Shown: positions 25,208 to 46,200 of the stretch, piece after piece | Position numbering within the stretch: position 1 is the stretch's first letter | How the letters are laid out: each line of letters begins with the position of its first letter | Assembly: GCA_963921275.4 (NCBI GenBank) | Contig: OZ001293.3 | Span: forward strand, 5,536,001 to 5,600,000 | Direction of reading: 5' to 3' | From: an uncultured Hormoscilla sp. | GTDB lineage: Bacteria; Cyanobacteriota; Cyanobacteriia; Cyanobacteriales; Desertifilaceae | Length of the DNA stretch: 64,000 nt | Made by a program: the position numbers and the translations under genes | The notes under the pieces: generated by a model | What the model was told of the DNA's origin: nothing | The model's database searches: none | Seen by the model: only the letters and a program-made list of their open reading frames with translations

Positions 25208-28200
25208 ATGACAATATCTAAAGGTGAGACAAACCTCTCTGAGTTAGAGCGAGCGATCGCGCTTTATCAGACAGCACTAGAGACCATTGAGTCAGCAAAA
25301 CTAGGGCCGTCAAAAGCACAAGCAATGGAAGTGATCGCGGCCCGGGATGCAGTTCAGGCCGCCCTCAATGAAGAACCATTGGATGGGGTCGAGCCGGGAA
25401 TCGCTTCCCGACCCTCCCTTTCGGAACCGGATTTGCGATTTTCACCGCATCCGGCTACTGGGTACTAGGCCCTTTTCATAGGTAGACTTAATAGGAATTA
25501 CTTCCGTTAGCCCTTGCCGCCTGTCTTTTCTTCCCTTTCCTGGTTTAGCGAGTGGTTGTTCTGATAACCGTTAGTATCACCATTTTCAAGTCAGTTTTAC
25601 CAGTTATCCATACCTTATCCTCCACTTGCGTTTCGGATTAGTTCCGTGGCTTTTTAGGATTACTCATTCCAGCAGCTTCCTAGTATCACCGACCCACGTC
25701 AGCGCTGGCTACCCAGCATCATCTACATTACTGTAGATGTTATCCCAGGAATTACCCCGGGCATTCGCTTCTTGGGCCATCCCTCCCCCCGTGGCTTGCG
25801 CTTAACATCTAACTTGTCCTGATGGACAGCACACGAGAGGTTACTTCGTTCCCTAACAACATTTCGCGATACCTTTAGGTCCACACTATACCCCGGGAGC
25901 TATTTGAGTACTATATTAGCCAGAGTCTAAAACTAATACTAGCTACCATTTCCTTTTTAGGCCAGCGCATATAGCCTTATTTCGCTGGTTCCTTATAACG
26001 AGGCTTGCACATGTTTGCCTGCTCTAACCTTGGATATCTTTCCTAGCGGCGTCACCGGCTTAGGCTGCCAGTTATCCTACATTTGAGTCCTCGCTTAGCA
26101 CCACGATGATGTCGCTTCGTAGCACCGAGGACCGGTGTCACCCCCGTACCTGGGGGGAGGGGAATTTAACCCCCATGCGGTCAGAGTTCCCGGCTAATGA
26201 AACCGGGCTAGCGTTCCGTGTTTGACCACGTTAGGCTAGAACGAATCGCACAGACTCCGCCAAGAGTAGAGCAACTGTCTGTGAGTTGGATAGCAGGTTG
26301 AAAAAACAGGAAAAGGCGATCGCCAGCGCTGGTCCGTTGCCGGAATGGCGCGAGAGCTTGCAGCCACCAGAGTCAGCTTGGTGGTGGTTTTTCTAACCGC
26401 CGATCGACCGGTAGATGCGATTCGACTGGTTGTGGAATGCCTTGACGATTAGCGCCTTAGCATTGTCTGCTAGCTTGATCATGACTACTCTACAGTCTTT
26501 GGCGATCAAAGGATTGACCTGGCAACAGTCCTTTGGAGCCATTCTTCAGGGAGCCGGGTTGGCGGCGATCGGATCCAGCGCACTGACGTCAGAAGGACAG
26601 CAAAAGGTGAGGAACATTCTTAAGAAGACCGGCGTGCCCGAGCGTTTCCAGAGCGAGGCCACTCTGATTGTCTCATTAATGGTGTTGGGAGGTGTCTACA
26701 GCCTGTACAATTTCTTGCCCGGTCGTTTATACGAAAATGGGCTCTCAAGTTATCGGCAGGGGGAGTTGTCCGATGCAGAGGAAAATTTCTTACAGGCGCT
26801 CGAACTGAAACCCGATGATGAGAGGAGCAACATTGCTCTGGGAGAAGTTTACGAATCTATAGGCGATCTCGAAAAGGCGATCGCCCAGTACAAGCAGGCA
26901 TTATCATCGGGCAATCCCAAAGCCTTTAACAACCTGGGGCGCGTGTATATTGACAGAATTGACCCCATCCTAAGAAGGAAAACTTTCTCCTCGCTGAGAC
27001 CTACCTACGGATAGGCTTGCAGCGTGCCAAGGGCACCCGGGAGGAGCCAGATTTGAATGAGGATCCCGATTCCAATAATCCCAATAATATTAAATATGAA
27101 TTGTATAGGAACCTGGGCTGGGCGCTGTTGGAGCAAAAAAAATATCCAGAAGCAGAGTCGGCACTGAAAAAGGCAATTGAATTTGACAATCAGACCCCCG
27201 AATTGCAGCTCGGCTCGGCCATTTCTGAGTGTCTGCTAGCGAAGCTATACAAAATTCAGGGAGATAAGCAACAGCGACAGATGAACTTGAGAGAGTGCCG
27301 GATGCTAGCCCGTCCGGAAACCTTAAATGAATACAAACGGTTGGTTCAGGATGAAGGTATAATGGCAGACTGCATCGACACAACTTTGATCGTCACGGGT
27401 CTGGACAAACTGCCCGTGGAATTTAATGAGTATTGTCGGGCATTGGCTGTGAAGAAACCACTAACAGCACTGACCGATCCTGCTCAAATAGAAGCTTTGG
27501 GGCAGAAGCTGTCAGAAAAAATTCAGCATGCGCTCGTTCCTCATGACAAACGCGCCTTTATCAATGGCAATTTAGTCTACTGGGTAACTGTGGGCGCAGG
27601 AGGGGATGTCATCGCCTTGGAGCCGACGAATAAACTGGCATCTGATGGAGTCCAATATACTCCCCTATTTGCCTTGTTAGAGTCAAATGCTACCCAAGAT
27701 GCTCTGGCTATATTCCAAGTAGTGTTTTCTCCTGACGGTTCCTTTAATGTCAACCCCTTGTCAGAGGAGTCCAAATCTCTAGCAGAGCCCACCTACCATG
27801 CCCCCCGGACGCACGGCGAAAACCCGGGGGGCACGGCCGGAAAAATCGGAAACCCCTCAGGTAAAAACAATTACTGAAGATCCAGCTAAAATAGAAGCTT
27901 TGAGGGTAAAGCTTTTTGATGAAATTGACCGCGTTCGCGTAGCGTGCGCGCAGCGTGCGCGCAGCGCATACTTGGCGCATCGTCCCCAGTTTCAATCAAA
28001 ATTTAGTCTACCAGGTGAGGGTGGACGTACCGTTCCGGAAAAATCGGGGGGCGATCGTCTCCTACGAACCCAAAATTCAACTGGCCTCTGACTTTGTCGT
28101 TCGCGTAGCGTGCGCGCAGCGCATAGAAATTCCCCTCCCCCAATTAGTTTCCCAAAATGCCACCGCGATGTCTCCTGTGTGCTGTGCGCGCAGCGTGGCG

Positions 28201-43211: not shown

Positions 43212-46200
43212 ATGTACAACACAGAACTGCCAGCAAAGCAGGGACTCTACGATCCACAATTTGAACATGACGCCTGCGGTGTCGGGTTCATAGTCCATAT
43301 GAAAGGAAAGAAGTCCCATGATATCGTGGAGCAGGCCCTGACGATCCTTTTAAACCTAGACCATCGGGGTGCCTGCGGTTGCGAAAAGAACACCGGTGAT
43401 GGAGCGGGGATTTTGATGCAAGTGCCGCACAAGTTCCTGAAGAAGGTGACTGCTGCGGAAAATATCACTCTGCCAGAACTGGGTCAATATGGGGTGGGGA
43501 CGATCTACTGCTCGCCAGATCCGGCCACGCGCGCCAAGAGCCAACGGATTTTTGAGAAAGTAGTAGCAGAAGAGGGGCAGGAGATGCTCGGGTGGCGCGA
43601 TGTACCGACGGACAATTCCGAGATCGGCAAGACGGCGCAAGCAAGCGAACCGTTTGTGCGCCAGGTTTTCATTAAACGGGCCCCGGACATCCCTGACGAC
43701 TTAGCTTTTGAGCGGAAACTATATGTCATCCGCATGCGCACTCACGTTGCGATCCGCAAGGTGGTAGATCCTTATTGGTATGGGGTCAGTCTCTCTTGCC
43801 GCACGCTGATATATAAAGGCATGCTGATGCCCGTGCAGGTGGGGCAGTATTATCCAGAACTGCACGATGAGGATATGGAAAGCGCTTTGGCCCTGGTCCA
43901 TTCCCGGTTCAGCACGAATACCTTCCCCAGTTGGGAACGCTCTCACCCCTATCGCTACATCGCCCATAATGGGGAAATTAACTCCCTGCGGGGCAATATT
44001 AATTGGATGCACGCTCGGCAGTCCATGTTCTCCTCAGAGTTGTTCGGAGATGACCTGAGCAAAGTCCCGAATTTGATCAACATCTTAGGCAGCGACTCTG
44101 GTATTTTCGATAATACCCTGAAACTGCTCGTCCTGGCTGGGCGATCGCTCCCCCATGCGATGATGATGATGATTCCGGAACCTTGGACGGGCCACGAGTC
44201 CATGAGCGAGGAGAAGAAGGCATTCTACAGATATCACTCCTGTCTGATGGAACCCTGGGATGGCCCGGCGTCAGTGGCCTTCACGGATGGGACGACCATC
44301 GGGGCGGTACTGGATCGCAATGGTTTGCGTCCCTCCCGCTATTACGTGACCAAGGACGACCTAGTAATTATGGCATCGGAAGCGGGGGTCTTGCCCATAG
44401 AACCGGAACGAGTGGCCCTGAAAGGTCGCTTGCAACCGGGGCGGATGTTCCTGGTAAATATGGAAGAGGGTCGGATCGTTGCGGATGAAGAACTGAAACA
44501 GCAGATCGCCACGGCCCATCCCTACGGCGAGTGGTTGGAAAAATATCTGGTCTCTCTGGATAAACTCAAGGATGGACCAGCGATGTCTACCGTTCCGGAA
44601 AAATCGGGGTTTTCGCGTCAGCGCAGCAGCTGCGCAGCTGCTAGCGTCCCGAAGACATCGAAATTAGAAGAGTTTGGTGCGATTCGTTCTAGTCTAACGT
44701 GGGCAACTACGGAACGCTAGGCCAGGTCCAAACTGGTAACTCTGGTATTCATGGGGGTTAGATTCCCTCTCTCCAAGTGTGGGAGTAACACCGGTCCTTA
44801 GTGCTGCTGAGTCACATCACGGTGGTGCGGAGCAAGGACTTAAATGTAGGATAGCTAGCAGCCTAAGCTAGTGACGCCGCTAGGAAAGATGCTAATGGCT
44901 AGAACAAGCGAACCTGTGTACGCCTCGTTATCTAGAACCAGCGAAATAAGGCTTAAAGCGCTGGCCCAAAAGGGAAATGGTAGTTTGTGCTGGTTCTTGC
45001 ACTTGGCCAGTATCGCACTCTAAGAACTCCCGGGGTATAGCAGGGGCCTAAAAGCATCGTGAAATGATACTAGGGAACGAAGTAACTTCTCGTGTGCTGT
45101 CTAGATTGGACAAGTTAGATGTAAAGCGCAAGCCGCGAGGGGAGAGATAGCCCGAGAAGCTAATGCCTAGGGTAACGCCTATGGATATGATGGGGTGTTC
45201 CTCATCCAGCTGACGCGGGTTGGTTAAAGTAGGAAATCTTGGGTAAGAGTATCTCTAAGACGCCGGAGGCCTCTCGAAGGTTGGATGACTGGTAAAACAG
45301 ACTTGGAAATGGTAATACTAAAGGTTATCTGGCAGCGCCGCTTACCAACCAGGAAAGGAGTGAAATCGCATGAGATGAGGGACAAGTGGAGCAATCCGTA
45401 GTAATCCTAGTAGTGACAATGCCCTACTTGCCAGTAGCCGGATGCGGTGAAAGTCGCACGTCCGGTTCCGAATGGGAGAGTTAGGGGGTGACCCCTAGCT
45501 CGACCCCGACTAGACTGCAACCCGGATCCAGCGCCAGATGGCCTTCGGTTATACCTTCGAGGAACTGCGGATGCTGTTGACCCCGATGGCCCAGAATGGG
45601 GTGGAAGCTGTGGGTTCCATGGGTACGGATACGCCCCTGGCCGTGCTGTCCGATCGCCCGAAATTGCTGTACAATTACTTTAAGCAATTGTTCGCCCAGG
45701 TGACGAACCCGCCGATCGATTCGATCCGGGAGGAAATTATTACTTCGGCGGAGACGACCATTGGTTCGGAACGCAATTTACTCAAACCGGAACCGGAAAG
45801 CTGCCATCTGATCGGGCTGAAAACTCCGATTATTACTAATGCCGATCTGGCTAAGCTGAAGCATGTAGATTTCGGTGAGTTTAAGTCGAGCACTATACCT
45901 ATTCTGTTCGATGGCGCTGCGCTGGGCGCGCAGCGCATTCCGACAAAGCAGGCGGTCAAGGGTCTGGAAACGGTGATGGACTCCATTTGCCAACAAGCCG
46001 ATCGGGCGATCGCGGAGGGGGTAAATATTATCATTCTCAGCGATCGGGGGGTAAGTCCTGAAAAAGCACCTATCCCGGCCCTGCTAGCAGTTGCAGGTCT
46101 GCATCATCACTTGATCCGAGAAGGAACGCGGACGCGAGTGGGTCTGGTGTTAGAATCAGGAGAACCCCGGGAAGTACATCATTTTGCTGTATTGATTGGT

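What the first reader, a model, noticed from the sequence alone, without database searches (positions are those of the whole stretch)
25381..45511. Intron 3' ends extend past the canonical AY (predicted branch A at -9)
Seen: the 5' boundary is fixed by EBS1/IBS1 pairing. Host frames are then restored only if family A ends ...ACCCCATCC (TPR gene: cca tt|a gac; Uma2: ggt c|ag att; kinase: aag gt|a aaa). Family B must end ...ACCCCGACT (gltB: ttt g|ag act). In both families the bulged domain VI adenosine is then 9 nt from the end, against the usual 7-8, and all five 3' exons begin with a purine. Inference: a structural variant with a shifted 3' splice and insertion site. It may match a described subclass, which I cannot check here.
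Basis: partly seen in the sequence, partly recalled or inferred. Interest (0 to 1): 0.75.

Follow-up and report, generated by a model that had tools for sequence, protein, structure and literature searches.

The report
Group II introns with longer tail
A large family of protein-less self-splicing-type introns in this cyanobacterium ends one base further from its predicted branch point than the published rule allows, mostly on CC or CU instead of A-pyrimidine, so rule-based annotation would misplace the exon border; that the RNA is cut there is inferred, not yet measured.

Summary
Confirmed at DNA level; strongly supported but unmeasured at RNA level. The five elements are ORF-less group II introns of IIB2 (CL2) type. 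Family A (139 full copies) ends ACCCCATCC in 138; family B (72) ends ACT in all 72. Empty target sites in the same genome match only this boundary: A 27 of 134, B 11 of 72, none under the AY boundary. Intron-less gltB, Uma2 and kinase alleles in relatives agree. The terminal base pairs with gamma in 52 of 53 lineages, and exon +1 with EBS3 in 36 of 39.

Corrections: this is not an extension past AY but an 8-nt branch-to-3'-end spacer (published: 6 or 7). RT-encoding IIB2 introns ending ACCCCTAAY share it in about 50 of 401 order-level genomes. The non-AY ends are a looser tail in the ORF-less clade, and a CC end has precedent (RmInt1). The purine at +1 reflects EBS3 = U. The three family A copies are antisense to their genes, so only gltB could be rescued by splicing. 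No spliced read or lariat was seen. The scan noted this before, elsewhere in the same genome.

The parts
25381..26251 (-). ORF-less IIB2-type intron, family A copy 1; ends ACCCCATCC; bulged A at 25389; gamma G at 25782; EBS3 U at 25888; EBS1 25923-25928; antisense in a TPR-type gene
   Evidence: no intron-less allele found in 4 same-genus genomes
32216..33086 (-).
   Evidence: intron-less alleles in 3 same-genus genomes (L134/L136, L135/L139, L138)
36446..37316 (+). Family A copy 3; EBS2 36702-36706, EBS1 36769-36774, EBS3 36809, gamma 36915, DV 37239-37274, DVI 37279-37311, bulged A 37308; antisense in a Ser/Thr kinase gene (Pkinase)
   Evidence: contiguous alleles in 3 of 4 same-genus genomes
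44677..45511 (+). ORF-less intron, family B copy 1, in the sense strand of a glutamate synthase large-subunit gene; EBS2 44931-44935, EBS1 44998-45003, EBS3 45038, gamma A 45145, DV 45434-45469, DVI 45474-45506, bulged A 45503; ends ACCCCGACT
43212..44676 (+). gltB 5' exon (GATase_2 domain), carrying IBS2/IBS1 at its end
   Evidence: identical junction in intron-less alleles of 3 relatives
45512..48762 (+). gltB 3' exon (Glu_syn_central, Glu_synthase, GXGXG); in frame with the 5' exon only if the intron includes the terminal T
58518..59352 (+). Family B copy 2 (outside the finding's span); gamma A 58986, bulged A 59344; no long ORF across the site
   Evidence: a 90%-identical empty site in the same genome agrees with the boundary

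Best explanation
These are protein-less IIB2-type group II introns whose DNA copies end 8 bases after the bulged domain VI adenosine, and they most likely splice as lariats from that adenosine and cut at that same end, borrowing a reverse transcriptase from other introns in the genome. Shown: the DNA boundary, the ORF-less anatomy, the copy numbers and the covariation. Inferred: the 3' splice site is set, as in other IIB introns, by two single base pairs, gamma-gamma' (last intron base) and EBS3-IBS3 (first exon base). Both pairs track the extended end, so the penultimate A of the AY rule is dispensable (A in only 49 of 395 copies). Because retrohoming inserts the excised RNA end to end, the DNA boundary should equal the RNA boundary. 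The spacer is one C longer than in sister introns ending ACCCTACC and is older than this family, since RT-encoding cyanobacterial IIB2 introns ending ACCCCTAAY carry it. Speculative: the 3-bp basal helix (GGG against CCCC) can slip by one base at almost no cost, which would give the two-base bulge of the second step and take up the extra base. Mobility would come in trans from the genome's RT introns, which themselves have the ordinary 7-nt spacer.
For: Terminal conservation in 139 + 72 copies. Exact empty sites only at the extended end. BLAST junction test: majority net indel 0 at 59 of 61 A and 31 of 35 B sites, never the +2/+1 majority that AY predicts. ORFs of >=100 codons on both sides: A 9 sense + 18 antisense, B 9 + 4, against 0-1 under the alternatives. 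Intron-less gltB, Uma2 and kinase alleles in relatives. Gamma column: G with terminal C 29/29, A with T 23/24, the top-ranked column by mutual information (0.87 bits); Watson-Crick in 52 of 53 at -1, 29 at -2, 0 at -3; 6 changes of the end and 7 of gamma on the tree. EBS3 column pairs with +1 in 36 of 39 families. EBS1-IBS1 gives >=5 of 6 pairs in 122 of 139 A and 62 of 72 B copies. DVI: 13 of 13 pairs kept, 4 compensatory between A and B. The two basal-helix registers differ by 0.2 kcal/mol. The roles of gamma-gamma' and EBS3-IBS3 are from PMC6224600 and PMC9294222.
Against: No spliced junction, lariat or branch read from this organism. The four runs that hold the DNA show no skip of the intron, and the two RNA runs with the joined gltB form come from about 92%-identical relatives whose form matches intron-less DNA alleles. 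The gamma covariation rests on few independent events (3 independent pairs, nearly always concordant, sign test p 0.25). The basal helix is only 3 bp (2 bp in 51 copies), which lowers branching in vitro in other introns (PMC4748821), so branching at this A is less secure than the end position. No covariation supports the slipped register. No RT-bearing intron with this end was found in the genome, so the helper is unidentified. The A and CCC of the genome census were required by my pattern, so their invariance there is by construction (BLAST-found A/B copies are not affected).
Confidence: 0.8

Rival explanations
1. The 3' end is as mapped, but the introns leave by hydrolysis or as circles and the bulged A is vestigial, so the longer spacer reflects relaxed selection on domain VI.
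For: 3-bp or 2-bp basal helix; 3-bp helices branch poorly without protein (PMC4748821); the Trichodesmium inner intron gave circles and no lariats despite a normal bulged A (PMC4649490); several multi-copy families have mispaired domain V.
Against: Hundreds of full-length insertions with exact 5' and 3' junctions fit complete reverse splicing of a lariat (established mechanism; PMC4748821 passage). The A is kept in all 139 A copies and all 72 B copies and in RT-bearing relatives across about 50 genomes (pattern-required). The spacer length is fixed, not drifting.
Confidence: 0.12
2. RNA splicing follows the AY, and the terminal CC/T are added or captured during integration, or are target bases.
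For: Rfam ends the match at AY; RmInt1 and the Trichodesmium inner intron form circles with an extra C.
Against: Empty sites lack those bases. The bases are invariant over 211 insertions and do not accumulate. For family B the AY end would give an A-C gamma mismatch, and covariation is with -1 only. gltB would be frameshifted. Families ending TAAT/TAAC have the same spacing with no earlier AY.
Confidence: 0.03
3. The 8-nt spacer is a routine IIB2 feature already present in curated sets and merely unremarked, so nothing here is new beyond the non-AY tails.
For: The spacer is in RT-encoding introns of about 50 of 401 order-level genomes. Curated IIB2 ends are already non-AY in 2 of the 3 that I could check (N.sp.I4 and the A. 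variabilis plasmid intron end ATC). 18 of the 21 introns in Table S3 of PMC8643678 were not checked (17 chromosomal or other records, plus A. variabilis plasmid C). This rival concerns novelty, and is compatible with the best explanation.
Against: Costa 2022 gives IIB2 a 7-nt segment and names only the Bacillus extensions and B.a.I2 as deviations. PMC4748821 says 6 or 7 in most subclasses. The three curated introns checked have 6- or 7-nt spacers.
Confidence: 0.45

Closest known systems
Cyanobacterial subgroup IIB2 / CL2 group II introns (N.sp.I4, A. marina pREB6, A. variabilis plasmid A; PMC8643678 Table S3; Tr.e.I7, PMC4649490)
   Same: GUGCGAUUC 5' end, predicted extra stem-loops at the base of domain I, EBS1/2/3 targeting; RTs of related introns with the long spacer group with these RTs; two of three curated ends checked are already non-AY (ATC).
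   Different: Spacer 8 nt against 6-7 in the three curated introns checked and 7 in Costa 2022; no ORF; 3-bp basal helix that could slip, where IIB2 is said to lack strand shifting; penultimate base mostly C.
RmInt1 of Sinorhizobium meliloti (class D / IIB3; PMC4238363)
   Same: Ends CC instead of AY; last base pairs with gamma.
   Different: Another class, RT-encoding, with poor 3' fidelity at a run of four C; its spacer length was not checked here. Here non-AY ends occur in 346 of 395 copies and in several forms (ATCC, GACT, GACC, GGCT).
ORF-less TeI3 introns of Thermosynechococcus elongatus (PMC2882425)
   Same: ORF-less, retargeted by EBS changes, mobile, twintron-forming, presumed driver RT in trans.
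   Different: IIB1; 17 copies against about 395; closely related to their drivers. Here the resident RT introns have a different domain VI and a 7-nt spacer, and no ORF remnant was shown.
Bacillus class B introns with 3' extensions (B.c.I4, 53-56 nt) and B.a.I2 (alternative site 4 nt downstream) (PMC1865049 and PMC2691827 listings; PMC9294222)
   Same: 3' splice site downstream of the consensus prediction, set by gamma-gamma' and EBS3-IBS3.
   Different: No added stem-loop domain and no sign of two alternative sites; the shift is a single base fixed across a lineage.

Membership tests
Group II intron | Domain V/VI motif with bulged A | tested here: met
   RF00029 over gathering score in all five; DVI 13 of 13 pairs kept
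Group II intron | 5' GUGYG | tested here: met
   GTGCG in 138 of 139 A (one GTGTG) and 72 of 72 B
Group II intron | 3' AY consensus | tested here: not met
   A ends CC, B ends CT; penultimate A in 49 of 395 clade copies. Exceptions are known (RmInt1), so this is a consensus, not a strict criterion
Group II intron | 6- or 7-nt spacer from branch A to 3' end | tested here: not met
   8 nt against PMC9294222 and PMC4748821
Group II intron | gamma-gamma' pair with last base | tested here: met
   52 of 53 lineages Watson-Crick at -1
Group II intron | Splicing via lariat | not testable with these tools
   No RNA data from this organism
Subgroup IIB | EBS1-IBS1, EBS2-IBS2 and EBS3-IBS3 | tested here: met
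   EBS1; EBS3 covariation 36 of 39; EBS2 matches the -13..-9 exon consensus by inspection
Subgroup IIB | delta-delta' pair | tested here: inconclusive
   delta is U in 51 of 51, so no covariation signal
IIB2 / CL2 | 5' GUGCGAUUC | tested here: met
   criterion from PMC4649490
IIB2 / CL2 | Extra stem-loops 5' of the basal internal loop of domain I | tested here: met
   two predicted hairpins within intron nt 12-63 (prediction only, z -1.6); criterion from PMC8643678
IIB2 / CL2 | CL2-type RT | tested here: inconclusive
   The elements have no ORF; RT-bearing introns with the same 3' end group with curated IIB2 RTs in a quick tree without other classes as outgroup
IIB2 / CL2 | 7-nt spacer without strand-shift potential (Costa 2022) | tested here: not met
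   8 nt; registers within 0.2 kcal/mol. Filed as a variant of IIB2, not a typical member
IIB2 / CL2 | Stem-less EBS2, no DIII-DIV linker, EBS2a-IBS2a | not tested
   listed; not examined
Bacillus 3'-extension introns | 53-56 nt structured insert after domain VI | tested here: not met
   conservation ends 5 nt after the basal helix
TeI3-like non-autonomous introns | No ORF, good EBS/IBS at many sites, RT introns in the same genome | tested here: met
TeI3-like non-autonomous introns | Mobilisation by a driver RT shown experimentally | not testable with these tools
   needs a mobility assay

The most novel reading that the evidence does not exclude
An undescribed cyanobacterial IIB2 lineage fixed an 8-nt branch-to-3'-end spacer in which a slipping GGG/CCCC helix restores the domain VI strand shift that IIB2 introns are said to lack. 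Its ORF-less offshoot then shed the penultimate-A rule and spread to about 395 copies using RTs whose own introns have a different domain VI geometry, giving a natural step toward the length-tolerant 3' ends and shared splicing factors of spliceosomal introns.
Probability: 0.3. Interest if true: 0.72.

Novelty: new variant of a known kind. Interest (0 to 1): 0.5.

Why it matters
The 6- or 7-nt distance from branch point to 3' splice site is treated as nearly fixed, and adding one base to an engineered IIC intron almost abolished exon ligation (PMC4748821). A natural lineage with 8 nt, hundreds of precise insertions and free penultimate bases is a ready test set for how domain VI delivers the 3' splice site, and for the proposal that this spacer's flexibility preceded spliceosomal 3' site choice (PMC9294222). 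In practice, Rfam- or AY-based calls are 1-2 nt short, so spliced genes such as gltB look frameshifted and targetron designs would be wrong. The effect is incremental: non-AY ends and longer 3' extensions are known, and the spacer may already sit unremarked in curated sets.

Tried and rejected
RNA proof: one run search gave 9 runs. X4-X7 hold the locus but show no joint skipping the intron and behave as DNA. RNA runs X1 and X2 hold a joined gltB ending at the same 3' exon base, but from about 92%-identical relatives that also lack 99 nt of the 5' exon, like the intron-less DNA alleles, so they do not show splicing; X3 and X8 gave no such joint.

My first assignment of J2/3 by eye was wrong; the alignment-wide covariation scan located gamma. 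The first census pattern matched the DVI loop of family B and was corrected. A narrow pattern found the tail in 0 of 400 phylum genomes and suggested a genus-only trait; the broader pattern overturned that. In one search my domain V brackets were out of register, so only helix 2 counts.

No covariation between the base before GGG and the first tail base, so no independent support for slippage. No intron-less allele for the TPR site in 4 relatives. Family B as a query against plasmids hit only domain V.

Literature: 10 searches found no paper naming an 8-nt spacer; a sponge-symbiont genome paper has 0 occurrences of 'intron'. Not seen, and able to bear on novelty: Simon 2008 (not held), the class boundary consensus figure of PMC4028801 (.doc), the PMC4649490 supplement, the Calgary database, Michel 1989 and Costa 2016.
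Full report
What is there. The window holds five ORF-less group II introns: three of family A (871 nt) and two of family B (835 nt), about 73% identical between families over the full length. The genome is cyanobacterial. The same intron clade occurs in records named Hormoscilla and in 4 of 4 same-genus genomes, so the host is probably of or near that genus (inference). The genome has 139 full-length A and 72 full-length B copies at >=97% identity. A domain V profile gives 505 hits: 395 with the ACCCC tail, 84 with an AGTTTAAY-type tail and 26 other or doubtful. 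The highest count in a survey of 1,790 representative bacterial genomes was 101 (PMC8919778, passages).

The DNA boundary. 138 of 139 A copies end ACCCCATCC and all 72 B copies end ACT; conservation drops to a bias at exon +1 and vanishes after it. Joining the flanks and searching the genome gives spanning hits for 61 of 139 A and 35 of 72 B sites, with majority net indel 0 at 59 and 31; the exceptions are +11, -1 (A) and -1, -1, -1, +5 (B), none the +2 or +1 that AY predicts. Some of those hits are tandem self-matches, so I repeated the test with exact 30-mers: 27 of 134 A, 11 of 72 B and 14 of 93 other-family sites match, all at the extended end. ORFs of at least 100 codons on both sides appear at 9 sense and 18 antisense A sites and at 9 and 4 B sites (some B sites count in both orientations), against 0 or 1 when 1-2 bases are retained. 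Relatives agree: the gltB junction is identical in 3 of 5 genomes, in frame but diverged in one, and not alignable in one; Uma2 in 3 genomes; the kinase in 3 of 4, the fourth having a 3-nt indel. The TPR site has no relative allele.

The RNA boundary, by inference. In 53 lineages (39 from this genome, 14 from named records; 6 nested or partial clusters and one RT-intron fragment left out), one column outranks all others in association with the last base: the purine of the J2/3 RGA, G with C in 29 of 29 and A with U in 23 of 24. It pairs with -1 in 52 of 53, with -2 in 29, with -3 in 0. Over 310 single copies, 277 pair, 4 do not, and 29 were not parsed. The end changes 6 times and gamma 7 times on the tree; only 3 independent pairs exist on well-supported branches, so the formal test is weak (p 0.25). 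A second scan finds EBS3, which pairs with the majority exon +1 base in 36 of 39 families (U-A 21, A-U 8, G-C 7). These are the two pairs that define the 3' splice site in IIB introns (PMC6224600, passages; PMC9294222, parts 1-2 of 3). For family B the AY end would leave an A-C mismatch. No RNA from this organism was available.

Among the 395 copies the tail is ACCCC plus four bases, ending in a pyrimidine in 393 (ATCC 147, GACT 109, GACC 71, TAAT 45, others); the penultimate base is A in 49. So the constant is an 8-nt spacer, and the inner AY of ATCC and GACT is chance. The purine at +1 follows from EBS3 = U. The three A copies are antisense to their genes, so they disrupt them and splicing cannot rescue them; the Uma2-like gene has also gained a stop. 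Only gltB is in the sense strand, with 5 of 6 EBS1 and 5 of 5 EBS2 pairs by inspection; a second glutamate synthase gene (46% identical) exists, so this copy need not be essential.

How far the trait reaches. A broad pattern hit 59 of 401 order-level genomes, this one included. Of the 53 whose matches were printed, 50 are clear DV-DVI (nearly all ending TAAT or TAAC outside this genus) and 3 look spurious; the reversed control gave 20 single hits. Many carry an RT ORF, and in the cases parsed gamma mostly matches again (A with TAAT, G with TAAC; one apparent mismatch). Sister RT introns in Nostoc, Microcoleus, Crinalium and Microseira records end ACCCTACC or ACCCTAAC, one C shorter. On a quick RT tree the long-spacer introns form two groups interleaved with curated IIB2 RTs, so the extra C is either old with losses or arose more than once. 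In this genome all 20 uninterrupted RT ORFs of 559 aa or more end at the AGTTTAAY type; 5 of 56 RT ORFs have a long-spacer domain V nearest, always 733 nt or more away, two of them nested B copies. The helper RT therefore probably comes from introns with a different domain VI.

Mechanism. Shown: boundaries, anatomy, covariation. Inferred with good confidence: splicing at the extended end through gamma-gamma' and EBS3-IBS3, and spread by retrohoming in trans, as shown for TeI3 (PMC2882425, passages). Inferred with moderate confidence: branching at the -9 A; the basal helix is 3 bp, or 2 bp in 51 copies, which lowers branching in vitro elsewhere (PMC4748821, passages). Speculative: GGG can pair with either the first or the last three C at a 0.2 kcal/mol difference, which would give the second-step two-base bulge that Costa 2022 says IIB2 introns cannot form; no covariation supports this.

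Comparison and novelty. Published spacers are 6 or 7 nt, with the Bacillus extensions and B.a.I2 named as exceptions. A CC end is known from RmInt1 (PMC4238363, passages), and two of three curated IIB2 introns that I could read end ATC (supplement part 1 of 2). Ten searches of the open library found no description of an 8-nt spacer, but key sources were not available and 18 of 21 curated IIB2 introns were not checked, so it may be known to specialists. Earlier notes of this scan report the same ends at other places in this genome; two gave me the RmInt1 lead and one the Costa 2022 lead, which I checked. Verdict: a real, well-supported new variant of IIB2 introns, incremental in novelty; interest 0.5.

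Noticed in passing
G000 whole genome: About 480 group II intron domain V motifs, about 395 in the ORF-less clade; 310 full-length copies in 45 clusters span 271 kb. The published survey maximum is 101.
   Followed up: partly
G000:C1:5447656-5450268 and 824934-826675; six copies such as C1:1326652-1327522: Tandem head-to-tail arrays of family A, and family A inserted repeatedly into its own domain IV after position 768; A and B also insert repeatedly into the RT introns and into transposase-like repeats.
   Followed up: partly
G000 clusters 2, 7, 12, 14, 17, 20: Multi-copy families with mispaired or shortened domain V; some variants look like 3-nt inversions inside short inverted repeats (including the TCA/GAA difference between window copies A2 and A1/A3). 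Unexplained how they stayed mobile.
   Followed up: no
window 35470-35810 (-): A 5' fragment of another long-spacer-clade intron with no domain V nearby.
   Followed up: no
G000:C1:4905412-4906244 (-): One family B copy has lost a C after the branch A, a natural reversion to the 7-nt spacer.
   Followed up: partly
L164 (G451), L165 (G582): ORF-less long-spacer introns of 817 and 833 nt in another family of the order, so ORF loss may have happened more than once or the element moved.
   Followed up: no
L124 (N.sp.I4), published end at record position 47908: The curated end gives a 6-nt spacer ending ATC and is followed by C; the true end could be one base later. One copy only, untested.
   Followed up: no
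window 44578-44663: gltB carries about 100 extra in-frame bases just upstream of the intron that relatives lack; runs of the same organism show further small insertions here.
   Followed up: no
window 48815-48838: Rfam CRISPR-DR28 hit just over cut-off on a dispersed short repeat, a single copy here; probably not a CRISPR array.
   Followed up: no
window 22305-22682 (42-nt period) and 39928-40126 (21-nt period); tRNA at 35038-35111: Tandem repeats and one tRNA gene seen in the self-comparison and Rfam scan.
   Followed up: no
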